21,538 bases of DNA. It comes from a virus. Taxonomy: Duplodnaviria > Heunggongvirae > Uroviricota > Caudoviricetes. Position numbers and translations under genes: made by a program. The notes beneath the pieces were generated by a model that saw nothing but the letters and a program-made list of their open reading frames with translations, did no database searches and had not been told where the DNA came from. Of the stretch, positions 1 to 19,004 are shown one piece after another. Location: the IMG/VR virus record IMGVR_UViG_2740892229_000015, one strand, 5' to 3'. Each line of letters opens with the position of its first letter. Positions within the stretch are counted from its first letter, which is position 1.

Positions 1-92
1 CGACATCGAATTTCTCCCGTGTACAGGAACAGAGTTAAAAAGCCGGAACCGGAATCAAATTACAGGATGGCCATCTGCCAGTGGCTGGTCGT

Positions 93-119
93 AAAAAAAA
101 GGCCGCGCCATGCGCAGCC
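93..119 (-). terminator. Candidate Rho-independent terminator on the minus strand: GC hairpin (revcomp of 101-119, ggctgcgc/gcgcggcc arms) followed by a run of 8 U (93-100)
   Basis: Hairpin plus T-run read directly; a near-identical copy of the flanking sequence recurs at 192-272 across an N run. Confidence 0.35.
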
Positions 120-272
120 GAAAATAAAGGGATAACGATGATAGTTTGAGAAAAACAGAAATAACACTTTTGTGGCAAAGCNNNNNNNNNNGGCCACGCC
201 ATGCGCAGCCGGAAATAAAGGGATAACGATGATAGTTTGAGAAAAACAGAAACAACACTTTTGTGGCAAAGC
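100..272. repeat. Two near-identical copies of an ~80-bp sequence (100-181 and 192-272) flanking an N run; most likely overlapping contig ends or repeat variants
   Basis: Direct comparison: ggcc(g/a)cgccatgcgcagcc(g)gaaataaagggataacgatgatagtttgagaaaaacagaaa(t/c)aacacttttgtggcaaagc. Confidence 0.6.
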
Positions 273-458
273 ATGGTGCCGGGTGCCTCCCGGTGAATTC
301 AGTATCAGCACCTGAATCCGCGATTATCCCATATACCTGGTTGCTGATCGCCCCTCCGCACAGGGGGATTCACCATGCAGAAGTGTTTTTAATAAACAGC
401 AAACAAAAAAATCAANNNNNNNNNNAGTAGTATTTTTAATAAACAGTAAACAAAAAAA

Positions 459-1495: not shown

Positions 1496-1511
1496 ACTGA
1501 GCTAACAACGC
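1496..1511 (-). other. 5' fragment of a tRNA-Arg(TCT) copy truncated at the contig start
   Basis: actgagctaacaacgc matches 1285-1300 of the intact tRNA-Arg(TCT). Confidence 0.6.
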
Positions 1512-1524
1512 ATGATGCTGATAA

Positions 1525-1601
1525 TGGACCGCCATCGGGGACTTGAACCCCGCGCAGCCAGCTTCGAAGGCTGGCGCTCTGTCCCGATGAGCTAATGGCG
1601 G
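1525..1601 (-). tRNA. tRNA-Arg, anticodon TCG as folded by hand (77 nt, CCA encoded)
   Basis: Acceptor CCGCCAT/ATGGCGG, anticodon stem CCAGC/GCTGG, loop CTTCGAA, T-loop TTCAAGT; anticodon call depends on my manual fold. Confidence 0.65.
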
Positions 1602-1610
1602 TATGTGATA

Positions 1611-1686
1611 TGGTGGCCCTTGCTGGATTTGAACCAGCGACCTGGCGATTATGAGTCGCTCGCTCTCACCACTGAGCTAAAGGGCC
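1611..1686 (-). tRNA. tRNA with anticodon CAT (76 nt); sequence and context fit the phage ileZ-type tRNA-Ile2 (lysidine) rather than tRNA-Met
   Basis: Cloverleaf: acceptor GGCCCTT/AAGGGCC, anticodon loop CTCATAA, T-loop TTCAAAT, 3' ACCA; sits downstream of Q like the ileZ-argN-argO cluster of Stx-type phages. Confidence 0.75.
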
Positions 1687-1825
1687 GGGAGCAGAATAAT
1701 AACGGTCCGTAATTAATTCCGCAATAAAAAACCCGCTCAATGGCGGGTTCTGGTAAAGTTCATGCGTTTGGTTCGCCTCGCGATACAGCTTTGCGAAGCT
1801 TACCGGAATTGAAGCAGTTTTTACG

Positions 1826-2380
1826 TCAAAAAGCAATAACTTTTTTCTCTATACCAAAAGCCATAACCATTGGTTTGTACAAAATAAATTCTGCCACCTT
1901 TAGCCAATGCTCAATGCGTCTTTCACAGGTTCTTAAACTCCATTCCGGATGTGCATCATTCAGCAGTTCAGCCATTTTGCGCTTAGTCATCCCCCGCCCC
2001 ACATAACGCTGACTCAGAACATTGAGCAGCCCGGGATAACCTGCCAGTACTTCACCAATAACCCTGTCGATTATTAACGCCTCTGAATCGGTACAATGCA
2101 CCAGCCAGCTTTTTTGCTTGCCGTTGATCATATCCCGCAAAAAAGCCTCAAGTTTAGGTTTGTCCAGACCTGCTTTTTTCATCCTCCGGAGCGCCTCGTT
2201 AATTGCCGTTTTTGTCAGCTTTTTAGAGGTCAGCAACTGGTTGAACATATTTCCCGTCTTACCGCCGCCAATATACGACCAGCGCCCCCACATACGTAGT
2301 TTCCCCTGAATCCAGACACTTTCCAGCGTGGTGAGACGAAGGTGCTCTCCGCTTTTTCCTGTGTTCGTTGGGTAAATCAT
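1826..2380 (-). CDS. Lambdoid late-gene antiterminator Q-like protein (184 aa from MIYPTNTGK)
   Basis: ORF track 1826..2500; internal ATG at 2380 has a GGAGAAAGGA RBS and overlaps the upstream stop (ATGA); position between nin-region genes and the tRNA cluster. Confidence 0.55.
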   Translation of the reverse strand: MIYPTNTGKSGEHLRLTTLESVWIQGKLRMWGRWSYIGGGKTGNMFNQLLTSKKLTKTAINEALRRMKKAGLDKPKLEAFLRDMINGKQKSWLVHCTDSEALIIDRVIGEVLAGYPGLLNVLSQRYVGRGMTKRKMAELLNDAHPEWSLRTCERRIEHWLKVAEFILYKPMVMAFGIEKKVIAF

Positions 2381-2667
2381 AAATAACCGTCCTTTCTCCA
2401 GATCTCTTGTGTGCGAAAAACACCTTCTGCATGCATCAGGCGCAATTCTTCTTTGGTGTAATCGCTGGTTTTTACTCTCCCGTCGATTAAATCGTGGCAT
2501 GAGTTACAGGCAATCGCTGCCTGCATATCGTGTGGCTTTATCGCTGTTCCGCACGTTCCCGCCAGCCTGTAATGCGCCAGCACAGAGGTTTCGGGATTGT
2601 GATTGCAGTAGCCAGGGATTCTGATCTGGCATATCTGGCCTTTAGCCGCTTTACGTAAATTCACCAT
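2377..2667 (-). CDS. YbcO-like (DUF1364) Cys-rich lambdoid nin-region protein, putative nuclease, 96 aa
   Basis: ORF track; cysteine pattern CQIRIPGYC...ACNSCHD recalled as YbcO-like; start overlaps the upstream stop (TAATG). Confidence 0.65.
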   Translation of the reverse strand: MVNLRKAAKGQICQIRIPGYCNHNPETSVLAHYRLAGTCGTAIKPHDMQAAIACNSCHDLIDGRVKTSDYTKEELRLMHAEGVFRTQEIWRKDGYL

Positions 2668-3266
2668 TACGCAAACTCCAGTAGTTGTGCGGCCACATTT
2701 TCAACTTCCTCCTGAGAGGAGAATTTACGGAACAGAATCCAGTTCCACAGCACATTCAGTACAGATTTATAAACCTGCTGAAACTCGACTTCGTCCATAT
2801 TCGCAAAAGCGATGGATTTTGCCCGACGCCCACGGCTACCGTCCGGATAAATATGCTCGGTGTAAAATCCGGCCTGAATGGTTACCCACTCGCGGAAAGC
2901 CTCAAACGACTTTAGCAACGCCGTATCCCGGGTTCTACGAGTCGCAACGGTGTTAAGGTATTGCTCTGCGGCATCACTCAGGGCTGGCGTGTGTTCCCGA
3001 CCAACTGATTCGCACAGGTAATCAACGAAACCAGACAGCAGTTCTCGTTCGCGAGGCGTGATCGCCCCACCGACCGGAGTCCAGTAATCGAATCCCAGTT
3101 GCAGGAGTTTGAAAAAACGCTTGTGGAATGCGTAGTTACGCACACGCTTAAAATCTGCGTGTATCCACTCACCTATTTTGATTTGATGCAGAAAATCGCA
3201 ACTCTCCGGCGTCGCCGGGAGAAGTAAACCAGAAGAAGTTTGTTTGACCAGTTGTATATGCGCCAT
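2667..3266 (-). CDS. Conserved lambdoid nin-region protein of unknown function (199 aa; possibly DUF1367-like)
   Basis: ORF track; tightly coupled to the YbcO-like gene; family assignment is from memory only. Confidence 0.5.
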   Translation of the reverse strand: MAHIQLVKQTSSGLLLPATPESCDFLHQIKIGEWIHADFKRVRNYAFHKRFFKLLQLGFDYWTPVGGAITPRERELLSGFVDYLCESVGREHTPALSDAAEQYLNTVATRRTRDTALLKSFEAFREWVTIQAGFYTEHIYPDGSRGRRAKSIAFANMDEVEFQQVYKSVLNVLWNWILFRKFSSQEEVENVAAQLLEFA

Positions 3267-3685
3267 TTCTCAATCTCTCGATGGCGCAGTGCAGCAGATG
3301 CCAGTTGTTCAAGCTAGCACGCAAATTGTAAACCAGAATGCCAGGAAAAAACAAAACCCGCCGAAGCTGGTTGTGTGCGGTTGCGTTGAAGTCTCCTAGC
3401 CAAAGAGTAGCGGTGACCACTCCCCGCCGATAATCTTAGTTGTTTAATTTCGTAAGCTAACTAGGCTAAAAGCTCTCTGTTGTCTGCCTGTTGTACAATT
3501 AACAAAATGAACAACGAACTAGATATACCAACGCCAGAATGGTGCAACAAATCCCAAACAACACAGCAATGCAACAATAACATATGTTATTTTCCTCTCA
3601 CGGGATTCAGTCCTGAATTCTCATAAAGCTAATCTTTTTTTAAAAACATACTGTTAGATCACATGCACTTTCTTTCTTAACATCG

Positions 3686-3713
3686 TTGACTTCGCATGCG
3701 AAGCGTTTAAAAT
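3686..3713 (+). promoter_or_regulatory. Candidate sigma70 promoter TTGACT-N16-TAAAAT with a perfect 14-bp palindrome cttcgcatgcgaag (3690-3703) in the spacer; about 50 bp upstream of the GHKL ATPase gene
   Basis: Hexamers and palindrome read directly. Confidence 0.4.
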
Positions 3714-3765
3714 CAACAATTTGCACTTAAGGTATTTATTTTCCCAAACACATAGAGAGTAAATT

Positions 3766-5157
3766 ATGACTGAGAACACGACTCCAACAGCAGACTTTAG
3801 TCCTAGTAAAAGATTTTTTGTAAGTATGCTAACTCGAGATATCGACTTAAACGATGCCATACTTGATCTGCTTGATAACTGCGTCGATGGGGCTTTACGT
3901 ACAATAAAAGACACAAAAAAAACTTCAAAACCATATGAAGGATTTTATGCGAAACTTACGATTAATAAAGATGTCTTTATTATAGAAGACAATTGCGGAG
4001 GTATCCCTAAAAGCTTCCGAGAATATGCTTTTAAAATGGGACGACCCCATCAAAAAGAAGAAGAAAATGAAGGCACCGTTGGCGTCTATGGTATTGGTAT
4101 GAAAAGAGCCATTTTTAAAATGGGTAGAGATTGCTCAATACAATCGAATAATCCCGATGGCGCATTCACTGTAGATATAACACCTGATTGGATCGATGGT
4201 GATGGTTGGAAAATACCGATGCACGAGAGTGACTATGATAACAAAAATCCAACAGGCACAACTATAGAGATAAAAAAACTCCATTCTAATGTGGCACAAA
4301 AATTTAATGAGAGCACATATCTTACTGATCTCTTTTTACAGATAAAACACTCATTGTCATTTATTATTCAAAAAGGATTTAAAATAGAATTAAATGGAGT
4401 TGTTGTTGAACATAATCCGATTAACATCATAACTGATCATTCTAAAATAGAACCATACATATATAAAGCTAAAATAGACGATGTTGATATCGATTTAGTT
4501 GTTGGCTTCTATAAAAATTTAGAAGATGACAATGATGATGTTTTAGAAAAAAGGAGTTCTGATGATGCTGGATGGACTGTCATTTGCAATGACCGCGTTG
4601 TTCTATATTGTGATAAGACACATCTCACAGGTTGGGGCTTTGCTAATGTACCAAGGTTTCATACCCAATTTATAGCAATTTCTGGGGTTGTTCGCTTTAC
4701 CAGTAAAAACCCAGAAAAATTACCAATAACAACAACGAAACGAGGTGTCGATCTTAGTTCTACATTGTACAATGATGTACGAAATAAAATGATTGAAGGG
4801 ATGATGCATTTTATTCGATTCACCAATCAGTGGAAAGGTGAGCATCTTGAAGAAGGGAAAAAATTACTTAAGTCAGCTCAGTCACATGAAGCTCAATCTT
4901 TATTTGAAATTACCCCACAATCAACTCCAGAAGATAAAAAAAATAACTGGTCCAACCCTAATAGAAACAAAAATGAGTGGCGATATACACCTAAGCTGCC
5001 TACCCCAGTAAAAAAAAGCTCTACTGTACGAATAATCTTCACCAGAGAGAAAGAAGATGTTAAAATTTTATCTAAATATTTCTTTGGACATGAAGATGCT
5101 AGCGCTTCTGATGTGGGGATGCAATGCTTTGATACGGTGATTGAAGAGGTGAAGTGA
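3766..5157 (+). CDS. GHKL-superfamily ATPase, MutL/MORC-like (463 aa)
   Basis: ORF track; Bergerat-fold motifs in order: N-box DLLDNCVDGA, G1 IEDNCGGI, G2 GVYGIGMKRA; GAGAG RBS; AT-rich codon usage unlike the flanking prophage genes. Confidence 0.85.
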   Translation: MTENTTPTADFSPSKRFFVSMLTRDIDLNDAILDLLDNCVDGALRTIKDTKKTSKPYEGFYAKLTINKDVFIIEDNCGGIPKSFREYAFKMGRPHQKEEENEGTVGVYGIGMKRAIFKMGRDCSIQSNNPDGAFTVDITPDWIDGDGWKIPMHESDYDNKNPTGTTIEIKKLHSNVAQKFNESTYLTDLFLQIKHSLSFIIQKGFKIELNGVVVEHNPINIITDHSKIEPYIYKAKIDDVDIDLVVGFYKNLEDDNDDVLEKRSSDDAGWTVICNDRVVLYCDKTHLTGWGFANVPRFHTQFIAISGVVRFTSKNPEKLPITTTKRGVDLSSTLYNDVRNKMIEGMMHFIRFTNQWKGEHLEEGKKLLKSAQSHEAQSLFEITPQSTPEDKKNNWSNPNRNKNEWRYTPKLPTPVKKSSTVRIIFTREKEDVKILSKYFFGHEDASASDVGMQCFDTVIEEVK

Positions 5158-6146
5158 TGTCTGGACAATACATTCCCTATCACTTAAGGCATAATAAGTC
5201 TATTGATAGAGAGATTTTTCTCGAAAGCCTAAACCTCTTAAGCAAAAGACTAAATATTCAAGAATATACATATATAGGTTTTGGTGGTCCGATGCTTGAA
5301 GATTTTAGAATCATGCATAATCGTATCGCTCTTTCTGATATGATTTCTCTCGAAGAACAAGAGTCTACTCACATCAGACAAAAATATAATTTGCCTTATA
5401 ATTGTATTGATTGTAAGCTAATATCAGCTCATGACTTTATTCTTGATTATAGTTTTTCTAAACCATCAATAACATGGTTAGACTATGCCTCCCCGAAAAA
5501 AATACAAACGGATCTAGATGATATACACTTACTAAGTACTAAAGTAAGCTCTTTTGATATTTTGAAGGTCACCTTCCCCATAAATCCTAGTTCTTATTAC
5601 CAACGTAGAGTTGGAGAAAGTTTAGATATTTTTAAAGAAGCTTTTATTAATTCATTAAAATCATTGCTTGGGAAAAAGTATCTTGATTTTAATCTTCAGA
5701 TATCAAATGCAGATCTTTCAGATCGTAAGATTAAAGCTCTTTTAATACGAATTATTACAAACGCTTTTAGATCAGCAATAGAACGTGGTCTTTCAGGACG
5801 TAAGGATAAGATTCAGTATTACCCATTATCCTTAAATCAATATAATGATGGCAGTCATACCATGTTGACAATATCAGGTTTTTTCTCCTCAGAACAAGAA
5901 TATATAGAGTTATCTAAGGCATGCGACCTTTCTAACTGGCAATTTTATTCAACAAATTGGGAAGACGTGCAAGAAATAGCAATACCAACACTAACAATTA
6001 AAGAAAAGATAAATTTAGATAGTAAACTGCCTGATAAAGAAGCATATCAGGCAGCCGCTGAAGAGTTCTCTTTAAACGAAAATGAACGGGATAACTATTA
6101 TAAATACTATAGGTTATACCCTAACTTCCAAAGAATTATGGTTTAA
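5157..6146 (+). CDS. Protein of unknown function (329 aa), translationally coupled to the GHKL ATPase; possible effector of the cassette
   Basis: ORF track 5154..6146; ATG at 5157 overlaps the ATPase TGA (TGATG); GAGGTG RBS; no motif I can recognise. Confidence 0.75.
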   Translation: MSGQYIPYHLRHNKSIDREIFLESLNLLSKRLNIQEYTYIGFGGPMLEDFRIMHNRIALSDMISLEEQESTHIRQKYNLPYNCIDCKLISAHDFILDYSFSKPSITWLDYASPKKIQTDLDDIHLLSTKVSSFDILKVTFPINPSSYYQRRVGESLDIFKEAFINSLKSLLGKKYLDFNLQISNADLSDRKIKALLIRIITNAFRSAIERGLSGRKDKIQYYPLSLNQYNDGSHTMLTISGFFSSEQEYIELSKACDLSNWQFYSTNWEDVQEIAIPTLTIKEKINLDSKLPDKEAYQAAAEEFSLNENERDNYYKYYRLYPNFQRIMV

Positions 6147-7265
6147 ATATTCGGGCTGTACTCTTTTATTTAATAAATTGTACAGCCCCTTTAATATATA
6201 TTCAGCAACTATTGGTGACACGCTATTTCCTATTTGTCTGAAACTATGCCATTTAGTTACATGAAAGCGAAACCAATCAGGGAAGCCTTGTAATCTAGCA
6301 GCTTCTCTTGGTGTAATCACTCTTGGATGATAAGGGTGGATCGGCCTGACGGCTTGAAAGCTTCCTTTATCTCTAGCGGTTCCCGCCCTTAAAGTCGGGC
6401 AAAAACCATTTGGATCTAATCTTGTAGATCTTGAAATTTTATCAGTTTCCCCAAAAGATAAGGAAGCATAACGCTCTTGGACGATTTTGCTATGTAATGT
6501 TCCGGTACATCCAGATATGATATTATTTTTTAACTTAGCGATCGATTCTGTATCACCAACATTCCGAGGGATCTGCCCCCATAATTTTTCATAAAATCCC
6601 CCTTTTCGATCTTTTTTAATTGTTCGCCAACTCTCAGAGTCTGATTGCCAATTGGCATCGATAATATCTGGTAATCCATACAAAGCATCTTTTACAGTAA
6701 CCGGATCAATCATTTTAGGCATAAATACTTCATCTGAAATATCAAGCTTCAATGATTTTTTTACACCGATAAAAAAATATCTAGTTCGAATAGTTGGAGC
6801 ACCATAATCAGATGCTTTTACCTTGATGGGATCAAGAATATCATAATCACCGCTAACCAAATTAAATGCTTTATTTCTAATGCCAGAATATTTCTCTTGC
6901 ATAATACCTGGAACATTTTCTGCCAAAAAGAATAATGGCTGTAATTCTGATACTAAACGGTAGAAATGCATGTAAAGCTGATTCCTGCTATCATCAGGAT
7001 TCCCCTTGCCTATTGAACTAAATCCTTGGCACGGAGGACCGCCAATAATACCATCTATGGGCATATCGTTTTTAAAAAAACCCTTAATTATTTCTGCATT
7101 TAGTAAAGAAACATCTTCTTGGACGTGCAAACTTCTTGGAAAATTAATTGCGTGAGTATTAATAGCATGTTGATCAATTTCAACTGCCATTTTAACATCA
7201 AATCCAGCACGTGCAGCACCAAGACTTAGACCTCCAACGCCAGAAAACAAATCTATTACATTCAT
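6114..7265 (-). CDS. DNA (cytosine-5)-methyltransferase (383 aa)
   Basis: ORF track; canonical C5-MTase motifs: I FSGVGG, IV GPPCQGFS (catalytic Cys), VI ENV, X QIGNSVSP; 3' end overlaps the convergent 329-aa gene by 33 bp. Confidence 0.9.
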   Translation of the reverse strand: MNVIDLFSGVGGLSLGAARAGFDVKMAVEIDQHAINTHAINFPRSLHVQEDVSLLNAEIIKGFFKNDMPIDGIIGGPPCQGFSSIGKGNPDDSRNQLYMHFYRLVSELQPLFFLAENVPGIMQEKYSGIRNKAFNLVSGDYDILDPIKVKASDYGAPTIRTRYFFIGVKKSLKLDISDEVFMPKMIDPVTVKDALYGLPDIIDANWQSDSESWRTIKKDRKGGFYEKLWGQIPRNVGDTESIAKLKNNIISGCTGTLHSKIVQERYASLSFGETDKISRSTRLDPNGFCPTLRAGTARDKGSFQAVRPIHPYHPRVITPREAARLQGFPDWFRFHVTKWHSFRQIGNSVSPIVAEYILKGLYNLLNKRVQPEYLNHNSLEVRV

Positions 7266-7297
7266 ATAGTTGCAACGTCTCTTATTAGTTTCTATGT

Positions 7298-7306
7298 ATT
7301 ATAACA
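7298..7306 (-). promoter_or_regulatory. Candidate extended -10 promoter (TGTTATAAT on the minus strand) about 30 nt upstream of the methyltransferase ATG
   Basis: Read from the reverse complement of 7298-7306. Confidence 0.35.
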
Positions 7307-7517
7307 CAACTGTTCTTGATGTTTTAACCCCATAAGATAACCTCATAAAGGCTATCCCTTGAAAATACCGGATCGCATAAATTTAATCTTTCAAAACTAC
7401 TTGTCTATTAATCGAGCAATTTAAGGTTGTTTTAGTCATGTCGATACCGACATAGTTAACTAAACCCATTTCATCGTCCAACAAATGGGGGTAATACACT
7501 TTGATTTATAGTCGGGT

Positions 7518-7622
7518 GGGTTTTTCTCTATCTGCCTTTGGTGTTCATGCCCAAGGCAGATAGCCTCAAGCACCCGCAGCAATTCTACTTAACTATCCTT
7601 TTCCCGCAAATCGTTTTTATCC
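7518..7622. repeat. Copy 1 of a ~105-bp conserved element (imperfect palindrome atctgcctttgg...ccaaggcagat plus shared core agcctcaagcacccgcagcaattctacttaact); copy 2 at 8438-8543
   Basis: Direct comparison of the two loci. Confidence 0.6.
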
Positions 7623-7700
7623 CCAGCGGCAAATCGAATACACAACCAGCGCCACCGCCATCGCAATTCCTACCGTTGTGAATGCTTCAGGCCAGGTCAT
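7617..7700 (-). CDS. Small hydrophobic peptide, 27 aa (MTWPEAFTTVGIAMAVALVVYSICRWG)
   Basis: Hand translation; ATG overlaps the TGA of the upstream ORF (ATGA); paralogue of the peptide at 8713-8796. Confidence 0.4.
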   Translation of the reverse strand: MTWPEAFTTVGIAMAVALVVYSICRWG

Positions 7701-8120
7701 CGTGAAACATCCTCCACGCTTATAAGTCCGCTTCGCTCCAGGTAGTCCATCACTTTATCCGGCAATTTGCAGCCCGGTTTCGCTTTCTTCAGTTGACTAA
7801 CCAATTGTTTAACCAGCATTGTCAATTCGCGAACTTGTTTCCCGGGCTCCCCTTTGCCCTGAAGCAGGGCAGCGCGGCAAGCGTTCCATCCCTCAGCATA
7901 TGTTTCAGTTACACCATCGAGATGGCATGTAAGCAAATCCATTTCTTCCGGCACTACGGGCGCTGGAAAAACGGCATAGGGTGGCGTCCATTTTGGCGCT
8001 TTATCTCCAGCCGAACGCTGCTACCAGTCATCCGGTTTGTATTCATAAAAATCACCAACTGGCTCTGCTTCCAGCGATGCCAGCGCAATCCGTGCCAGTT
8101 CCATTTGTTCACCACGGGTA
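7697..8120 (-). pseudogene. Paralogue of the 289-aa prophage protein at 8793-9662, interrupted by an in-frame TAG (8021-8023) and truncated by the contig end; the downstream 85-aa segment is in the ORF track
   Basis: 7981-8120 is nearly identical to 9537-9620; hand translation gives ...EAEPVGDFYEYKPDDW-stop-QRSAGDK...VPEEMDLL. Confidence 0.35.
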
Positions 8121-8171
8121 NNNNNNNNNNTTCATCAGAGGTGGCGAGGGATTTCTCCCCCGCCGGGGCTC

Positions 8172-8327
8172 TTACTCCTCAGGTTCGTAAGCTGTGAAGA
8201 CAGCGACCTCCGTCTGGCCGGTTCGGACTCGTACCTCGCAGAGGTCTTTCCTCGTTACCAGTGCCGTCACTATGACGGTTAAACAGATGACGATCAGGGC
8301 GATTAACATCGCCTTTTGCTGCTTCAT
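8172..8327 (-). CDS. hok: Hok/Gef-family type I toxin (51 aa, MKQQKAMLIALIVICLTVIVTALVTRKDLCEVRVRTGQTEVAVFTAYEPEE), HokD/RelF-like
   Basis: ORF track 8172..8384; internal ATG with AGGAGAAG RBS; single TM helix plus conserved C-terminal Cys, matching the Hok family as I recall it. Confidence 0.8.
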   Translation of the reverse strand: MKQQKAMLIALIVICLTVIVTALVTRKDLCEVRVRTGQTEVAVFTAYEPEE

Positions 8328-8437
8328 AGCCTGCTTCTCCTTGCCTTTCGGCACGTAAGAGGCTAACCTACGTTTGTGAAGCATAGATTGGGCCTCAGAT
8401 TAATGTTAAGCGTCTTGCAGGACGCGTAATGTTAACT

Positions 8438-8543
8438 GGGGCTTTTCTCTGTCTGCCTTACGGTGGCATGCCCGAGGCAGACAGCCTCAAGCACCCGCAG
8501 CAATTCTACTTAACTCTCGCTTTACCGCAAACCGTTTTTACCC
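8438..8543. repeat. Copy 2 of the conserved ~105-bp element (palindrome ctgtctgcc...ggcagacag), here about 110 bp upstream of hok on the hok-coding strand
   Basis: Direct comparison with 7518-7622. Confidence 0.6.
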
Positions 8544-8572
8544 GATATGGGAATTCCCATATCGTAATGAAT

Positions 8573-8677
8573 TCAGTTCCCTAGTCGATCCATCAAAAAC
8601 ACAACCAGGCAGTAAACGCCCACAACAGCAACAACAGCCAGCGCACCTTCCATTGCCAGTGATATATCATCCGACAT
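8573..8677 (-). CDS. Small hydrophobic peptide, 34 aa (MSDDISLAMEGALAVVAVVGVYCLVVFLMDRLGN)
   Basis: Hand translation; strong AGGAGGG RBS. Confidence 0.4.
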   Translation of the reverse strand: MSDDISLAMEGALAVVAVVGVYCLVVFLMDRLGN

Positions 8678-8712
8678 ATTCCCTCCTTTGGTGTTAATCC
8701 CGGCGAACGTTT

Positions 8713-8796
8713 TTACCCCCACCGACAAATAACATATACTAAAAAAGCGATAGCCATAGCAACGCCTGTAATTGCAAATGCTTCAGGCCAGTTCAT
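8713..8796 (-). CDS. Small hydrophobic peptide, 27 aa (MNWPEAFAITGVAMAIAFLVYVICRWG)
   Basis: Hand translation; ATG overlaps the TGA of the upstream 289-aa gene (ATGA); paralogue of 7617-7700. Confidence 0.45.
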   Translation of the reverse strand: MNWPEAFAITGVAMAIAFLVYVICRWG

Positions 8797-9662
8797 TGGC
8801 GCACCTCCTGCGGCGGTTCTGGTAGCGGCATCCAGTGTGACGGTTTCCACGACGCACCAGGAATTATCCACCCATCATTAGCGTCAGGATGACCCGGGAT
8901 GTAAGTCGCCCATTTCATTCGCCAGTCACCTTTCCTGTCAAACTCCACGGCAACAAGAACGGCTGTTTTGGTATCCGGCATTCGCTCACTACAGCTTATC
9001 CAACTATCCGGAGTTACCGGATAGTTGCCCGATAGTGCATTCTGCTCCAGTGATGCTTTTACAAACCACGCTGCCTGAACTATAACGCCATGAATCCAGC
9101 GCAAATCAGCATCGCGATCTTTCTTTTTCATCTTTTCGCCACTTAAGGCCTTGCTTATGTGGCTGCGTACCAGGTCTTCATGTAATTCCTTCGCCTCCTC
9201 AATGGTGAAACCACCAGGCAGAAGAGCCGGAGTTACCGGAGAGCTGGTTGACGCTTCCGGGATTTTCCGAAAATTATTGGTTGACGAATCTTTATTTTCC
9301 CGAAAGTTTCCGGACTGAAGCATGGCTTCGCGGCAATCGTTCCAGCCTGTAGCGTATGCAGCCGCTTTGCTGCTGCCTTCAACTGGCGCATCCTGCCAAT
9401 ACATTTCTTCCGGCACTATCGGCGCTGGAGGGGCGGCAAATAGATATCCGCCAAAGTCAGGAAGCTCTCTAATGGCCTGTACGAATTTTTGTTTGCCTAC
9501 GTCAACCCCTAATGGGTAATGAGCTATAATCTTTGCCACCGGCTCTGCTTCCAGCGATGCCAGCGCAATCCGTGCCAGTTCCATTTGTTCACCACGGGTA
9601 AGCCCGTTTTCAACCGGATTTTTAATGAACAATTCAATACGTTCTTTGGTAATAGTGGTCAT
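8793..9662 (-). CDS. Prophage early-region protein with a C-terminal DUF551-like domain (289 aa)
   Basis: ORF track; AAGGAG RBS; C-terminal W..CSERMPD...W..SHWMPLPEPP motif typical of phage DUF551 proteins (from memory). Confidence 0.75.
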   Translation of the reverse strand: MTTITKERIELFIKNPVENGLTRGEQMELARIALASLEAEPVAKIIAHYPLGVDVGKQKFVQAIRELPDFGGYLFAAPPAPIVPEEMYWQDAPVEGSSKAAAYATGWNDCREAMLQSGNFRENKDSSTNNFRKIPEASTSSPVTPALLPGGFTIEEAKELHEDLVRSHISKALSGEKMKKKDRDADLRWIHGVIVQAAWFVKASLEQNALSGNYPVTPDSWISCSERMPDTKTAVLVAVEFDRKGDWRMKWATYIPGHPDANDGWIIPGASWKPSHWMPLPEPPQEVRQ

Positions 9663-9672
9663 GTGTTACTCC

Positions 9673-9936
9673 TTAACCCGCAGTGCTTTCAACTGATGAG
9701 GGGAACAAAATCTTTTCATCAAACCCTGCATTCATATCATGAACAGCAACACACCAATCCATCGACGAACGATTATCAAGAGCCTCCATGATTTCATCCA
9801 TGCGGCGTAGGTCATACAGGTAAATGCTTTTATCGCCAATGGTGTAAAAGCCAATTTTTTTCGGTGATGGACAGCGATCAAGAACTTCCTGTAATTCGTT
9901 CAACCATGCCCGTTCTTTTTTTGTCAAAGTTGCCAT
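9673..9936 (-). CDS. Hypothetical prophage protein (87 aa from MATLTKKERAWL)
   Basis: ORF track 9673..10026; internal ATG with AAGGAAAA RBS. Confidence 0.55.
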   Translation of the reverse strand: MATLTKKERAWLNELQEVLDRCPSPKKIGFYTIGDKSIYLYDLRRMDEIMEALDNRSSMDWCVAVHDMNAGFDEKILFPSSVESTAG

Positions 9937-9937
9937 A

Positions 9938-10156
9938 TCAGTTTTCCTTATACGGATTAATTTTATTGTGCAGTGTGTTGAACGACGCCCATACAACGTC
10001 GGTATACAATTCAGTAACTGGCTCAATTATTTTCCCGATTGCCCAGACAAAAATTAGAGGGGATATCGGTATCATCAATACGATAAACAGAATGAGAAAC
10101 AAAAATTCTGTCGCCCTACTTTTTTGCGGATATTCTTTTCTGAATAATGTAGTCAT
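9938..10156 (-). CDS. Small predicted membrane protein (72 aa)
   Basis: ORF track; hydrophobic core FLFLILFIVLMIPISPLIFVWAIG; tightly packed with neighbours. Confidence 0.5.
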   Translation of the reverse strand: MTTLFRKEYPQKSRATEFLFLILFIVLMIPISPLIFVWAIGKIIEPVTELYTDVVWASFNTLHNKINPYKEN

Positions 10157-10188
10157 TTCTTACCGCCCTTTCGGGCGGCCTCCCGACA

Positions 10189-10401
10189 TTAATCGTTGTG
10201 GTAACTCATGGCTTCATTTGCAGCATCAACCGGATCAACCTCCCACCAGCAATAATTTGGTGCGTTTCCTTCAGGTGTCCACGGTTCTAATTCATTTTTT
10301 GCCACATTCCCATCGCCAGTAATTTTAAAAATCTGCTCAGAGAATTTTCTTGCCCACTCGTTATATTTTTCCGCATTAATGGCTTTCTGTGTATTTAACA
10401 T
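10189..10401 (-). CDS. Hypothetical prophage protein (70 aa)
   Basis: ORF track; GGAGG RBS upstream of the ATG. Confidence 0.55.
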   Translation of the reverse strand: MLNTQKAINAEKYNEWARKFSEQIFKITGDGNVAKNELEPWTPEGNAPNYCWWEVDPVDAANEAMSYHND

Positions 10402-10506
10402 AAATATACCTCCAGTTAAGGATTAAATTTTATTTACAGTGCTGAACTTAATTATTCAGATTTGGATTATGCTTTCTCTTCACGAAGTTCCGATTGTTAA
10501 TTTGGC

Positions 10507-10783
10507 TCACAACAGCACCTTCTGAAAATTACCCTGATAGAAAGCCAGTACACGCTGCATAGCTTCGCTCTTCCGGCACTCGCTACAGATTATGTTCAGA
10601 CGCCTGTCGTAGCGGCGTATTTCTCCGTCTGGTAATGACCAGATAAGATCCGGATCAACCACAGATGGTTTCTTCACCTTTGCCCTAGATAGTTTTTTGC
10701 GGGCATTTTGCCAGTCCTTACGAGCCTGTTCAGACGGGAATAACCCGTAACCAGAGTTGTATACATCGCCACTGGCAACCAGC
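10507..10783 (-). CDS. C-terminal fragment of a prophage gene truncated by the N run (...DGEIRRYDRRLNIICSECRKSEAMQRVLAFYQGNFQKVLL-stop)
   Basis: Hand translation of the minus strand, open to the contig end; a paralogous copy lies at 12677-12953. Confidence 0.5.
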
Positions 10784-10793
10784 NNNNNNNNNN

Positions 10794-12680: not shown

Positions 12681-12953
12681 CGCACCACCTCCTCAAAATT
12701 CCCCTGATAAAACGCCAGTACGCGCTGCATAACTTCGCTCTTCCGGCACTCGAGACAGATTATGTTCAGACGCCTGTCGTAGCGACGTATTTCTCCGTCA
12801 GGTAATGACCAGATAAGGTCCGGATCAACCGCAGATGGTTTCTTCAGCTTTGCCCTTGAGAGCTTTTTACGGGTATTTTGCCAGTCCTTACGCGCCTGTT
12901 CAGACGGGAATAACCCGTAACCAGAGTTGTATACATCGCCACTGGCAACCAGC
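12677..12953 (-). CDS. C-terminal fragment of the paralogue of the 10507-10783 gene, truncated by the N run
   Basis: Near-identical DNA to 10507-10783 with scattered substitutions. Confidence 0.5.
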
Positions 12954-12963
12954 NNNNNNNNNN

Positions 12964-13670
12964 GAACCGCCCCGGAAATCCTGGAGACTAAACTCCCTGA
13001 GAAAGAGGTAAACAGGATGACTAAAAATACTCGTTTTTCCCCCGAAGTCCGTCAGCGGGCGATTCGTATGGTTCTGGAAAGTCAGGATGAATATGACTCA
13101 CAGTGGGCGGCAATTTGTTCCATTGCCCCAAAGATTGGCTGTACGCCGGAGACTCTGCGTGTCTGGGTTCGCCAGCATGAGCGGGATACCGGGAGTGGTG
13201 ATGGTGGACTCACCACCGCTGAACGTCAGCGTCTGAAAGAGCTGGAACGTGAAAATCGTGAACTGCGCCGCAGTAACGATATCCTTCGCCAGGCTTCCGC
13301 TTATTTTGCGAAGGCGGAGTTCGACCGCCTCTGGAAAAAATAATGCCTCTGCTGGATAAGCTGCGTGAGCAGTACGGGGTCGGACCGGTATGCAGTGAAC
13401 TGCATATTGCCCCGTCAACGTATTACCACTGTCAGCAACAGCGACATCATCCTGATAAACGCAGTGCCCGTGCGCAGCGCGATGACTGGCTGAAGAGAGA
13501 GATACAGCGCGTATACGATGAAAATCATCAGGTATACGGTGTGCGTAAAGTCTGGCGCCAGTTGTTACGCGAAGGTATCAGGGTGGCCAGATGTACAGTG
13601 GCGCGCCTCATGGCGGTTATGGGACTTGCCGGTGCTCTCCGGGGTAAAAAGGTCCGTACTACCGTCAGCC
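12964..13670 (+). mobile_element. IS3-family insertion sequence, left part only (IRL, orfA, first ~110 codons of orfB); homology to the other copy ends at ~13670
   Basis: Terminal repeat gaaccgccccgg at the contig start; orfA/orfB in -1 frame arrangement; transposase resembles IS629/IS3411-type as I recall. Confidence 0.8.
13017..13343 (+). CDS. IS3-family transposase OrfA (HTH, 108 aa)
   Basis: ORF track (its N-terminal residues spanning the N run are artefactual); GAGG RBS; leucine-zipper-like C-terminus. Confidence 0.9.
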
Positions 13671-13690: not shown

Positions 13691-13971
13691 CGAAGTTGGA
13701 TGCAAATGTCAGATCGTGTGCGCCTGTTATGGCTCGGCTGGTAAGAGAGCCTTATAGGCGCATTTGAAAAAACTCCAGCTATACCGGAAGATATTTATTA
13801 TTAACAGGAGAGGTTTGCTTTTCTGTGTAGGTTTAGATTTTGTGTTTGCAGGGTAAACAAAACTGATTAACTCGTCATTTCGGTAACTGAAATAGTTTGC
13901 TGTTGGATTTGCCCCTATATTTCCAGACATCTGTTATCACTTAACCCATTACAAGCCCGCTNNNNNNNNNN

Positions 13972-14854
13972 ACTGCTGGATAAGCTGCGTGAGCAGTACG
14001 GGGTCGGACCGGTATGCAGCGAACTGCATATTGCCCCGTCAACGTATTACCATTGTCAGCAACAGCGACATCATCCGGATAAACGCAGTGCCCGTGCGCA
14101 GCACGATGACTGGCTGAAGAAAGAGATACAGCGCGTATACGATGAAAATCACCAGGTATACGGTGTGCGTAAAGTCTGGCGTCAGTTGTTACGGGAAGGT
14201 ATCAGAGTGGCCAGATGCACTGTGGCACGTCTCATGGCAGTTATGGGACTTGCCGGTGTTCTCCGGGGTAAAAAGGTCCGCACTACCGTCAGCCGGAAAG
14301 CCGTTGCCGCATGCGACCGCGTAAACCGTCAGTTCGTGGCAGAACGTCCAGACCAGTTGTGGGTGGCTGATTTTACCTGGGTAAGCACATGGCAGGGCTT
14401 CGTTTATGTGGCGTTCATCATTGATGTGTTCGCCGGATACATCGTGGGATGGCAGGTCTCATCATCCATGGAAACAACATTCGTGCTGGATGCACTGGAG
14501 CAGGCGTTGTGGGCCCGTCGGCCGTCCGGCACAATCCATCACAGTGATAAAGGTTCTCAGTATGTATCGCTGGCCTACACGCAGCGGCTTAAGGAAGCCG
14601 GATTACTGGCATCAACAGGGAGTACTGGCGACTCGTATGACAACGCGATGGCTGAGAGCATCAATGGTCTTTACAAAGCGGAGGTAATACACCGTAAGAG
14701 CTGGAAAAACCGGACAGAAGTGGAACTGGCCACACTAACGTGGGTGGACTGGTATAACAATCGACGATTGCTGGAAAGGCTGGGCCATATTCCTCCGGCA
14801 GAAGCAGAAAAAGCTTATTATGCTTCCATCGGAAATAATGATCTGGCAGCCTGA
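13972..14854 (+). CDS. IS3-family transposase OrfB (DDE integrase core), 5' end lost in the N run
   Basis: ORF track 14165..14854 plus open frame back to the contig start. Confidence 0.85.
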
Positions 14855-16172: not shown

Positions 16173-16182
16173 NNNNNNNNNN

Positions 16183-18994: not shown

Positions 18995-19004
18995 NNNNNN
19001 NNNN

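What the first reader, a model, noticed from the sequence alone, without database searches (positions are those of the whole stretch)
7266..8543. Same conserved locus carries alternative cargo: hok toxin in one prophage copy, the methyltransferase cassette in the other
A ~105-bp element with an internal palindrome and an identical 33-bp core occurs at 7518-7622 and 8438-8543, each just downstream of a paralogous 27-34-aa hydrophobic peptide gene. In one copy the element is followed by a Hok-family toxin gene (8172-8327); in the other, the corresponding position is occupied by unrelated sequence leading into the MTase cassette. This suggests a cargo-exchange hotspot, and that the element is either part of a hok leader/antisense region or an independent structured RNA or recombination site.
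Basis: partly seen in the sequence, partly recalled or inferred. Interest (0 to 1): 0.5.

Follow-up and report, generated by a model that had tools for sequence, protein, structure and literature searches.

The report
Live and dead hok toxin loci
The repeated 105-bp element is the promoter and first hairpin of the well-known hok/sok toxin-antitoxin messenger RNA; one copy heads an intact toxin locus, and the other heads a dead hok locus broken by an insertion-sequence remnant and a 3.7-kb DNA-methylase cassette, so this is ordinary prophage decay, not a cargo-swapping site.

Summary
The repeat is real: 7518-7622 and 8439-8543 share 89 of 105 bases, a 33-bp identical core and an internal palindrome. 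Read on the minus strand, it is the hok promoter plus the first 58 nt of hok mRNA (the tac stem-loop, Rfam RF01794).

Copy B heads a complete hokW/hokD-type type I toxin-antitoxin locus. Copy A heads a dead hok locus:
- The leader runs 19 nt past the repeat.
- It is then cut by the terminal ~34-50 nt of an IS150-like element, at the same leader position where IS150 interrupts chromosomal hokA.
- AT-rich DNA follows, carrying a three-gene cassette (C5 methylase, PF20553 protein, GHKL ATPase).
- Beyond the cassette lie an unannotated hok pseudogene (3565-3402), a degenerate fbi box and the hok terminator.

The two copies sit on different contigs joined by N10, so they are probably in different prophages. 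Copy A's arrangement is 100% identical in 172 complete E. coli genomes (Sakai Sp10, EDL933). Among 104 informative viral contigs, 95 have intact hok and only this one cassette occurs. In Klebsiella and Enterobacter prophages the cassette has no hok remnants. A cargo-exchange hotspot is therefore not supported. Low interest.

The parts
8497..8543 (-). Copy B: hok promoter region (-35 TTGCGG 8530-8525, -10 TAGAAT 8508-8503; inferred transcription start at 8496)
   Evidence: Motif coordinates. The Rfam hok-leader model begins at 8496. This region is 92% identical to phage 933W, where mokW/hokW/sokW are annotated. The promoter and transcription start are inferred, not measured.
8439..8496 (-). Copy B: first 58 nt of hok mRNA (tac element, apical hairpin, ucb/anti-SD), the tac stem-loop
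   Evidence: RF01794 model positions 1-58 within a 117.5-bit full-length hit. Fold -29.2 kcal/mol, z -3.9.
8322..8496 (-). Copy B: complete hok mRNA leader up to the hok start codon
   Evidence: Rfam RF01794, 117.5 bits (gathering score 59), E 1.4e-26, model 1-157.
8172..8384 (-). Copy B: mok reading frame (70 aa) overlapping hok (8172-8327, 51 aa)
   Evidence: ORFs. Pfam PF01848 HOK_GEF, E 5.8e-23. RefSeq calls the same gene hokD in a 99.96% identical locus.
8376..8446 (+). Copy B: Sok antisense RNA gene, placed by homology
   Evidence: The sokW misc_RNA of phage 933W (L002 3244-3314) maps here through a 92% alignment. hokW-sokW was shown experimentally to be a type I TA system in PMC8621323. 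Expression in this genome was not tested.
7576..7622 (-). Copy A: hok promoter region (-35 TTGCGG 7609-7604, -10 TAGAAT 7587-7582)
   Evidence: The whole 105-bp element differs at only 4 positions from that of intact hokW-type loci.
7518..7575 (-). Copy A: tac stem-loop (hok mRNA nt 1-58)
   Evidence: RF01794 hit 7575..7451, 50.2 bits, below the gathering score; only model positions 1-58 align well. Fold -24.5 kcal/mol, z -4.9.
7499..7517 (-). Copy A: continuation of the hok leader (nt 59-77, ACCCGACTATAAATCAAAG), a leader subtype different from copy B
   Evidence: Aligns with the intact hok locus of E. coli O157 WS4202 (L138) and with chromosomal hokA (L137).
7449..7498 (-). Copy A: remnant of the left end of an IS150-like insertion sequence, at the same leader position where IS150 interrupts chromosomal hokA
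   Evidence: 7498-7466 is 88% identical to IS150 nt 1-34 (E 1.4e-5). A gapped alignment continues to about 7449. In L137 the 1443-bp IS150 with target duplication AAG follows the same ...ATAAATCAAAG.
7338..7448 (.). AT-rich spacer of unknown origin between the IS remnant and the cassette core
   Evidence: No homology to hok loci or to the Klebsiella or Enterobacter cassette loci.
3641..7337 (.). Three-gene cassette core: C5 DNA methylase 6114-7265 (-) with its own promoter at 7327-7298, PF20553 protein 5154-6146 (+), GHKL ATPase 3766-5157 (+)
   Evidence: Pfam hits; PADLOC matches the methylase only; promoter TTAAAA-18-TATAAT with TG. The core is 70-82% identical in prophages of Klebsiella aerogenes, Enterobacter and others. 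GC is 0.32-0.38 against about 0.5 in the flanks.
3402..3583 (-). hok pseudogene and 3' UTR (HokA-like allele), with two in-frame stops and three indels; unannotated in RefSeq
   Evidence: 3565-3402 is 69% identical (118/171) to an intact hok allele in viral contig L094. Alignment score is 125 against shuffles of 22 +/- 3 (maximum 37). The L094 protein is HOK_GEF, E 9.6e-20. A read-through translation of the pseudogene gives HOK_GEF as the only Pfam hit, E 0.057.
3345..3391 (-). Degenerate fbi box (3391-3379, CTTCAACGCAACC) and the hok terminator (stem-loop 3370-3357 with one mismatch, T-run 3356-3345)
   Evidence: Aligns with the 3' end of intact hok loci at about 90%. The tac-fbi duplex is -9.9 kcal/mol here, against -19.3 in 94 of 107 loci.
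7617..7700 (-). 27-aa hydrophobic peptide ORF upstream of copy A; its stop codon lies inside the element
   Evidence: The ORF is conserved in 65 of 120 viral loci and sits directly before the element in 30 of them. It is a paralogue of 8713-8796.
8573..8796 (-). Copy B upstream neighbours: 27-aa ORF (8713-8796) and 34-aa ORF (8573-8677)
   Evidence: The 34-aa ORF is annotated as a hypothetical protein in RefSeq.
8121..8130 (.). N10 run: a contig join between the two loci
   Evidence: One of ten N10 runs. Contig ends coincide with repeat boundaries.

Best explanation
The 105-bp element is the 5' control region of a hok/sok type I toxin-antitoxin locus, of the kind carried as a small self-contained module in the early-right (nin) region of lambdoid prophages. 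On the minus strand it holds a sigma-70 promoter (TTGCGG, 16-nt spacer, TAGAAT) and the first 58 nt of hok mRNA.

From established hok biology, the 5' end of that mRNA (tac) pairs with the 3' end (fbi) to keep the full-length mRNA silent. After 3' trimming, tac pairs with ucb instead, which opens the mRNA to translation and to Sok antisense RNA.

Copy B (8131-8543) is a complete, presumably functional hokW/hokD-type locus. It is truncated by a contig end just before its fbi box.

Copy A is the head of a dead hok locus of a different leader and allele subtype. The inferred history is:
1. An IS150-like element inserted after leader nt 77, the same position as IS150 in chromosomal hokA. This separated the promoter and tac from mok/hok.
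2. Most of the IS was later lost, and AT-rich DNA carrying a mobile three-gene methylase cassette came to occupy the gap.
3. The promoterless hok ORF, the fbi box and the terminator stem then decayed.

Shown: the homologies, the breakpoints, the pseudogene, and the single shared arrangement in 172 genomes. Inferred: the order of events, promoter activity, and the idea that the cassette's link to hok is an accident of insertion.
For: Identity of the element:
- Rfam RF01794 scores 117.5 bits on copy B. On copy A it scores 50.2 bits, with only the first hairpin aligning well.
- Copy B is 92% identical to 933W, where mokW/hokW/sokW are annotated.
- hokW-sokW was shown experimentally to be a type I TA system (PMC8621323). 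The tac/fbi/ucb mechanism is described in PMC9841398.
- The Hok ORF matches HOK_GEF at E 5.8e-23.

Copy A lies inside a hok locus:
- The 5' flank 7518-7623 and the 3' flank 3291-3389 both match an intact hokD locus (L001).
- A hok pseudogene at 3565-3402 scores 125 against shuffles of 22 +/- 3.
- The fbi duplex is -9.9 kcal/mol, against -19.3 in intact loci.
- The leader continues to 7499, and an IS150-like end occupies 7498-7466 at the hokA::IS150 position.

Single event:
- Window 2700-8120 is 100% identical in 172 of 5426 complete E. coli genomes, always with the same flanks, including Sakai Sp10.

Survey of viral contigs:
- Of 104 informative contigs carrying the 33-mer, 95 have intact hok loci (94 with a Hok ORF), 3 have this cassette, 3 have a 1.1-kb IS, and 2 have a divergent hok allele.

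The cassette is independent of hok:
- The same gene trio occurs in six other prophage contexts without any hok or Rfam sok signal.
- The methylase has its own promoter inside the conserved cassette core.
Against: - The order of events is not observed, and no intermediate allele (a complete IS in this backbone) was found.
- The IS remnant is short (34-50 nt, 88% identical).
- 7338-7448 and 3566-3640 have no identified origin.
- Copy A's promoter and tac stem are much better preserved (4 differences in 105) than its hok ORF (69% to the nearest intact allele). This could mean selection or recent gene conversion rather than neutral decay.
- No expression data were examined.
Confidence: 0.85

Rival explanations
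1. Cargo-exchange hotspot. The conserved element and the hok 3' flank act as recombination substrates, either site-specific or as portable homology arms for phage recombinases. Different cargoes (hok, the methylase cassette, others) would then be swapped repeatedly at this position.
For: - Both flanks of the cassette are homologous to hok-locus ends.
- The hok module has sharp mosaic boundaries: upstream at about -28, and just after the terminator, where 50 of 90 loci carry different DNA.
- In the same phage backbone, other genomes carry KilA-N plus hok plus DUF1971, or hok alone.
Against: - Only one non-hok cargo is seen between the tac stem and fbi, always with identical flanks (172 genomes; viral survey).
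- A hok pseudogene and an IS remnant lie inside the locus, so hok was interrupted and not replaced.
- The cassette in other genera lacks hok remnants.
- No recombinase gene and no consistent flanking repeats were found.
Confidence: 0.06
2. The retained hok promoter and tac stem of copy A have been co-opted. They might serve as an upstream promoter or leader for the methylase, which has the same orientation and starts 250 nt downstream. Alternatively they might produce a short stable RNA with its own function.
For: - The promoter hexamers, the transcription-start context and the hairpin are intact. The element differs at only 4 of 105 positions from intact loci, while the ORF, fbi box and terminator are degraded.
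- The methylase is co-oriented with the element.
- The hairpin folds stably.
Against: - The methylase has a near-consensus extended -10 promoter inside the cassette core. That core is conserved in loci that lack the element.
- The region of the hok leader bound by Sok is absent from copy A, so a role as a Sok decoy is unlikely.
- The good preservation can be explained by recent recombination with other hok-bearing prophages in the same cell.
- No transcription data were examined.
Confidence: 0.08
3. The cassette replaced the middle of the hok locus in one illegitimate recombination with no IS involvement. On this view the similarity of 7498-7466 to the IS150 end is coincidental or is part of an unsampled hok leader variant.
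For: - The IS-like stretch is only 34-50 nt long and 88% identical.
- No other IS150 sequence is present in the contig.
Against: - The match begins exactly at IS150 nucleotide 1.
- It begins exactly after the same leader sequence (...ATAAATCAAAG) where the complete 1443-bp IS150 sits in hokA. Intact loci continue with TGAGGC... at that point.
Confidence: 0.08

Closest known systems
hokW-sokW of Stx2 phages 933W / Sakai Sp5, and the prophage loci RefSeq annotates as hokD (type I TA; Rfam RF01794, Pfam PF01848)
   Same: Copy B is 92% identical in DNA to the 933W locus and 99.96% identical to an E. coli prophage locus annotated hokD. It has the same promoter, tac stem, leader hairpins, mok/hok overlap and Sok position.
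   Different: No substantive difference. In this assembly the locus is cut by a contig end 41 nt after the hok stop codon, so its fbi box and terminator are not in the window.
Chromosomal hokA::IS150 of E. coli. Hok loci inactivated by insertion sequences were described for K-12 by Pedersen and Gerdes 1999; that citation is from my own knowledge and I did not read the paper here.
   Same: Copy A has an IS150-like left end inserted after the same leader sequence (...ATAAATCAAAG) as IS150 in hokA. This separates the promoter and tac from hok, and its pseudogene is a HokA-like allele.
   Different: Only about 34-50 nt of the IS remain. The rest is replaced by AT-rich DNA with a three-gene methylase cassette. 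The hok ORF is itself degraded. The locus is in a lambdoid prophage (Sp10 type), not at the glyS-cspE chromosomal site.
Lambdoid phage 'morons' and mosaic modules of the nin region
   Same: Both the hok module and the methylase cassette behave as discrete insertable units. They have their own promoters and terminators, and they are present or absent among related prophages between the replication genes and ninB/DUF1367, rusA and Q.
   Different: Here one module landed inside another, rather than between phage genes.

Membership tests
hok/sok type I toxin-antitoxin locus: copy B (8131-8543) | Hok/Gef family toxin ORF of about 50 aa | tested here: met
   PF01848, E 5.8e-23, 80.7 bits against a cutoff of 22.
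hok/sok type I toxin-antitoxin locus: copy B (8131-8543) | Conserved, structured hok mRNA leader (Rfam RF01794 at or above 59 bits) | tested here: met
   117.5 bits, full model 1-157, minus strand. The plus strand scores only 18 bits.
hok/sok type I toxin-antitoxin locus: copy B (8131-8543) | Overlapping mok reading frame that starts upstream of hok | tested here: met
   A 70-aa ORF at 8172-8384 is in frame with hok and contains it.
hok/sok type I toxin-antitoxin locus: copy B (8131-8543) | Antisense Sok RNA gene with its own promoter | tested here: inconclusive
   Present by 92% homology to the annotated sokW of 933W (maps to 8376-8446, plus strand). The simple promoter scan found no plus-strand promoter. 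No expression data were examined.
hok/sok type I toxin-antitoxin locus: copy B (8131-8543) | 5' tac element complementary to a 3' fbi element | not testable with these tools
   The contig ends 41 nt after the hok stop codon, before the fbi box. In the 99.96% identical locus L001 the duplex is perfect (-19.3 kcal/mol).
hok/sok type I toxin-antitoxin locus: copy A (3345-7622) | Intact Hok ORF | tested here: not met
   Only a pseudogene remains, with two in-frame stops and three indels. HOK_GEF scores 13.5 bits against a cutoff of 22, even on a read-through translation.
hok/sok type I toxin-antitoxin locus: copy A (3345-7622) | Complete hok leader (RF01794 at or above 59 bits) and a Sok gene | tested here: not met
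   The hit scores 50.2 bits and aligns well only over model positions 1-58. The leader is cut at nt 77 by the IS remnant, so the Sok promoter region is absent.
hok/sok type I toxin-antitoxin locus: copy A (3345-7622) | tac-fbi complementarity | tested here: not met
   The fbi box CTTCAACGCAACC gives -9.9 kcal/mol with one broken pair, against -19.3 in 94 of 107 loci.
Recombination hotspot or cassette-exchange site (integron-like or homology-arm exchange) | Several different cargoes at the same junctions in related elements | tested here: not met
   There is one cassette type and one flank context in 172 genomes. Of 104 informative viral loci, 95 carry intact hok.
Recombination hotspot or cassette-exchange site (integron-like or homology-arm exchange) | Conserved site or repeats at the cassette boundaries, and an associated recombinase | tested here: not met
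   No recombinase gene was found. The only candidate is one imperfect 19-nt direct repeat (3619-3637 / 7373-7391) in this locus, with nothing comparable in five other cassette loci.
IS150 (IS3 family) insertion | Terminal inverted repeat beginning TGTACTG... at a defined target, a transposase gene, and a 3-bp target duplication | tested here: inconclusive
   The left end is present (88% over nt 1-34) at the hokA::IS150 position. The transposase, the right end and the target duplication are absent, so this is a remnant only.

The most novel reading that the evidence does not exclude
The orphan hok promoter and tac stem of the Sp10-type locus may be kept by selection. It could serve as an upstream expression or regulatory leader for the methylase cassette, or as a source of a roughly 80-130-nt RNA. 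Alternatively, its homology to the many hok loci in co-resident prophages could let phage recombinases move the cassette into other hok loci, replacing a toxin with a methylase system.
Probability: 0.08. Interest if true: 0.4.

Novelty: already known. Interest (0 to 1): 0.15.

Why it matters
It matters little beyond annotation. Three practical points follow:
- Sakai Sp10 and EDL933-type prophages carry an unannotated dead hok locus: a promoter and tac stem, an IS150-like scar, a hok pseudogene and a degenerate fbi box, all surrounding ECs1953-1955.
- A short shared repeat between prophage contigs can simply be the conserved head of a family whose members diverge further downstream.
- Scaffold N-runs must be checked before adjacency is interpreted.

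The locus also illustrates a general constraint. Insertions in a hok/sok locus are tolerated only when they uncouple hok from its promoter. This is seen here, in hokA::IS150, and in the 1.1-kb IS at the hok ribosome-binding site in three viral contigs.

Tried and rejected
- **Breakpoint at 7517/7518.** I first took this as the cassette junction. I rejected it after a sensitive search showed that the homology continues into 7466-7517 in hokA and in an O157 prophage hok locus.
- **Clean replacement of hok by the cassette.** Rejected after finding the hok pseudogene. Its alignment to the hokD-type reference alone was not significant (28 against 21.5 +/- 3). Its alignment to the L094 allele was significant (125 against 22 +/- 3).
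- **Decayed hok leader in the AT-rich stretches 7517-7266 and 3800-3560.** Alignments to the L094 leader were not above shuffles (29 against 20.8 +/- 3.8; 22 against 19.9 +/- 3.3).
- **Rfam on 3250-3800.** Nothing relevant was found.
- **Cassette relatives.** A genome-contig scan with peptide patterns found none. tblastn against the phage and plasmid collections gave only distant hits of 26-29%. Close relatives came from the protein database instead.
- **Terminal repeats of the cassette.** Only one imperfect 19-mer pair was found, possibly by chance.
- **34-aa and 27-aa peptides as paralogues.** Not supported.
- **PADLOC.** It recognises only the methylase of the cassette.
Full report
**Observation.** The repeat is real. 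The repeat finder reports 7518-7622 and 8439-8543 as a 105-nt direct repeat. An ungapped comparison gives 89/105 identical bases and a 33-bp identical run, AGTTAAGTAGAATTGCTGCGGGTGCTTGAGGCT on the minus strand. Each copy holds an internal palindrome, and as RNA each folds better than all 200 shuffles. The Hok gene at 8172-8327 is confirmed (HOK_GEF, E 5.8e-23). All genes in this region are on the minus strand.

**Assembly caveat.** The window contains ten runs of exactly 10 N. Copy A is on contig 1496-8120 and copy B on contig 8131-10783. Contig ends coincide with repeat boundaries. The side-by-side placement is therefore scaffolding. In the complete genome NZ_CP027546.1 the two locus types lie about 690 kb apart.

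**What the element is.** Rfam RF01794 is named 'sok' but models the hok mRNA leader. It matches 8496..8322 on the minus strand at 117.5 bits (gathering score 59) over the full model. Its first hairpin (model positions 1-58) is the transcribed half of the element, 8496-8439. The other 47 nt (8543-8497) contain TTGCGG, a 16-nt spacer and TAGAAT, with the model start 7 nt after the -10.

Copy B is 92% identical to phage 933W, where mokW, hokW and the SokW antisense RNA are annotated. It is 99.96% identical to an E. coli prophage locus annotated hokD. hokW-sokW has been shown experimentally to be a type I TA system (PMC8621323). The tac/fbi/ucb folding mechanism is summarised in PMC9841398.

The element is thus the hok promoter plus the tac stem-loop. 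The Sok gene, mapped by homology to 8376-8446 on the plus strand, overlaps only the last ~8 nt of the element. The two copies differ by at least one compensatory pair in the stem (A-U against G-C). Across 25 distinct hairpin variants the two haplotypes largely co-vary.

**Copy A is inside a hok locus.** Low-GC DNA (0.32-0.38) spans about 3400-7500. The sequence on both sides of it matches an intact hokD locus (L001). Window 7518-7623 matches the 5' end, and window 3291-3389 matches the region from the fbi box through the terminator.

I first read this as a replacement of the hok core. Two later findings changed that reading.

- **A hok pseudogene survives.** A viral contig (L094) carries an intact, divergent, HokA-like allele (HOK_GEF, E 9.6e-20). 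Window 3565-3402 aligns to it at 69% identity (118/171), with a score of 125 against shuffles of 22 +/- 3. In the L094 reading frame the window sequence has two in-frame stops and three indels, so it is a hok pseudogene. RefSeq does not annotate it. The fbi box is degenerate: the tac-fbi duplex is -9.9 kcal/mol, against -19.3 in 94 of 107 loci. The terminator stem has a mismatch.

- **7518 is not the cassette junction.** A sensitive search with 7340-7560 showed homology running past 7518. 7517-7499 (ACCCGACTATAAATCAAAG) is hok leader nt 59-77 of a subtype that is intact in an O157 prophage (L138) and in chromosomal hokA (L137). 7498-7466 matches nt 1-34 of IS150 at 88%, and with gaps the match continues to about 7449. 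It starts exactly where the complete 1443-bp IS150 (target duplication AAG) sits in hokA. The two window copies therefore stop resembling each other at 7518/8438 because hok leader subtypes diverge after the tac stem, not because cargo begins there.

**The cassette.** It encodes three proteins:
- a C5 DNA methylase (6114-7265, minus strand; PF00145, E 2.6e-61);
- a PF20553 'putative O-methyltransferase' protein (5154-6146, plus strand);
- a GHKL ATPase (3766-5157, plus strand; PF13589).

PADLOC recognises only the methylase. The methylase has a near-consensus promoter, TTAAAA-18-TATAAT with an upstream TG, at 7327-7298.

Homologues of the PF20553 protein at 67-90% identity led to the same three-gene unit in six other contexts. 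These are lambdoid prophages of Klebsiella aerogenes and unnamed samples, and a prophage end next to icd in Enterobacter asburiae. DNA homology to the window spans at most 3641-7337. None of these loci has a hok remnant or an Rfam sok hit. The cassette is therefore an independent mobile module, and its association with hok is specific to this E. coli locus.

**Is it a hotspot?** Window 2700-8120 is 100% identical in 172 of 5426 complete E. coli genomes, and the number does not change when the query is narrowed. These include Sakai prophage Sp10 (ECs1953-1955) and EDL933. Those ORFs were already noted as lineage-specific in PMC1890555. This points to one event in one backbone.

Of these, 104 have enough downstream sequence to classify:

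| Class | Contigs |
|---|---|
| Intact-length hok locus (94 with a Hok ORF) | 95 |
| This methylase cassette | 3 |
| 1.1-kb DDE-transposase IS at the hok ribosome-binding site | 3 |
| Divergent hok allele | 2 |
| Other (a single short contig) | 1 |

Real variability lies outside the hok module. It occurs at its upstream edge, about 28 nt before the 33-mer, and just after its terminator. There, 50 of 90 loci carry different DNA, and the measured inserts are 285-2217 bp. In the same backbone, other genomes carry hok alone, or KilA-N plus hok plus DUF1971.

**Peptide genes.** The two 27-aa ORFs (7617-7700 and 8713-8796) are paralogues (18/27 identical). The 34-aa ORF next to copy B is not demonstrably related to them. 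Both families are conserved as open frames in many loci: 65 and 33 of 120 respectively. No Pfam family reaches its cutoff for any of the three peptides; the only hit is a sub-threshold chance match.

**Mechanism and history (inferred).** A HokA-like hok/sok locus in an Sp10-type prophage was hit by an IS150-like element after leader nt 77. This uncoupled the promoter and tac from mok/hok, which is the only kind of disruption a cell should survive, because losing Sok alone would release the toxin. Most of the IS was later lost, and AT-rich DNA with the methylase cassette filled the gap. The hok ORF, fbi box and terminator then decayed.

The promoter and tac stem remain nearly intact, with 4 differences in 105 from intact loci. 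I attribute this to recombination with other hok-bearing prophages, but selection for a new role is not excluded.

**Verdict.** The element is a known part of a known system, and the 'alternative cargo' is a single insertion into a dead hok locus. Novelty: already known. Interest: low.

Noticed in passing
window 182-191, 416-425, 1395-1404, 1486-1495, 8121-8130, 10784-10793, 12954-12963, 13962-13971, 16173-16182, 18995-19004: There are ten runs of exactly 10 N. The window is a scaffold of short contigs from repeated prophage DNA. Two contigs (ending at 10783 and at 12953) stop at the same homologous point of the reference prophage, so gene order across the N runs cannot be trusted.
   Followed up: partly
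window 3641-7337; loci L126-L131, L134-L136: A conserved three-gene unit (C5 DNA methylase, PF20553 'putative O-methyltransferase', GHKL/HATPase_c_3 ATPase) recurs in the nin region of lambdoid prophages of Klebsiella, Enterobacter and unnamed samples, at 70-82% DNA identity. PADLOC recognises only the methylase, so this may be an uncharacterised restriction-like or defence module.
   Followed up: partly
window 8543-8564: A perfect 22-bp palindrome, CGATATGGGAATTCCCATATCG, centred on an EcoRI site, lies between the 34-aa ORF and the hok promoter of copy B. It is absent from copy A and its function is unknown.
   Followed up: no
window 7612-7619, 8533-8540, 8708-8715 (minus strand TAAAAACG): The same short motif, GG(A/G)TAAAAACG(N)TT, follows the 27-aa ORF in both copies and recurs after the 34-aa ORF module in copy B. 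This looks like a module-boundary sequence at which the 34-aa gene was inserted or duplicated.
   Followed up: no
L055, L066, L090 (about 180 nt after the 33-mer): A 1.1-kb insertion sequence encoding a ~360-aa DDE transposase (rve, rve_3 and HTH domains) sits at the hok Shine-Dalgarno sequence, with AGGAGA duplicated on both sides. This is a second independent way in which these prophage hok loci are interrupted.
   Followed up: partly
window 3619-3637 and 7373-7391: An imperfect 19-nt direct repeat (16/19 identical) lies just outside both ends of the cassette core. It could be chance in AT-rich DNA or a trace of the insertion event. No comparable repeats flank the cassette in five other loci.
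   Followed up: partly
window 13298-13414 and 13974-14038: There are two Rfam ALIL pseudoknot hits (the IS3-family programmed frameshift signal; 120.9 and 52.7 bits). They indicate IS3-family elements or fragments on small contigs.
   Followed up: no
window 235-407 and 1227-1686: The STnc100 sRNA (104.7 bits) and three tRNA genes lie downstream of the Q-like antiterminator region. This matches the layout of EHEC lambdoid prophages.
   Followed up: no
window 7697-8104 versus 8793-9662: Contig A carries only fragments (an 85-aa ORF and a 27-aa ORF starting MELARIALASLEAEP) of the DUF551 protein gene that is intact (289 aa) on contig B.
   Followed up: no
L094, L119 (IMG/VR contigs): These are mosaic hok loci. 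The leader is hokD/W-type through nt ~124, but the toxin is HokA-like (MRRSYVFCLVVVCITILIFVWMVRGSLCELHIRQGNTELSAYLAYEVEKR). So hok alleles recombine within the leader.
   Followed up: partly
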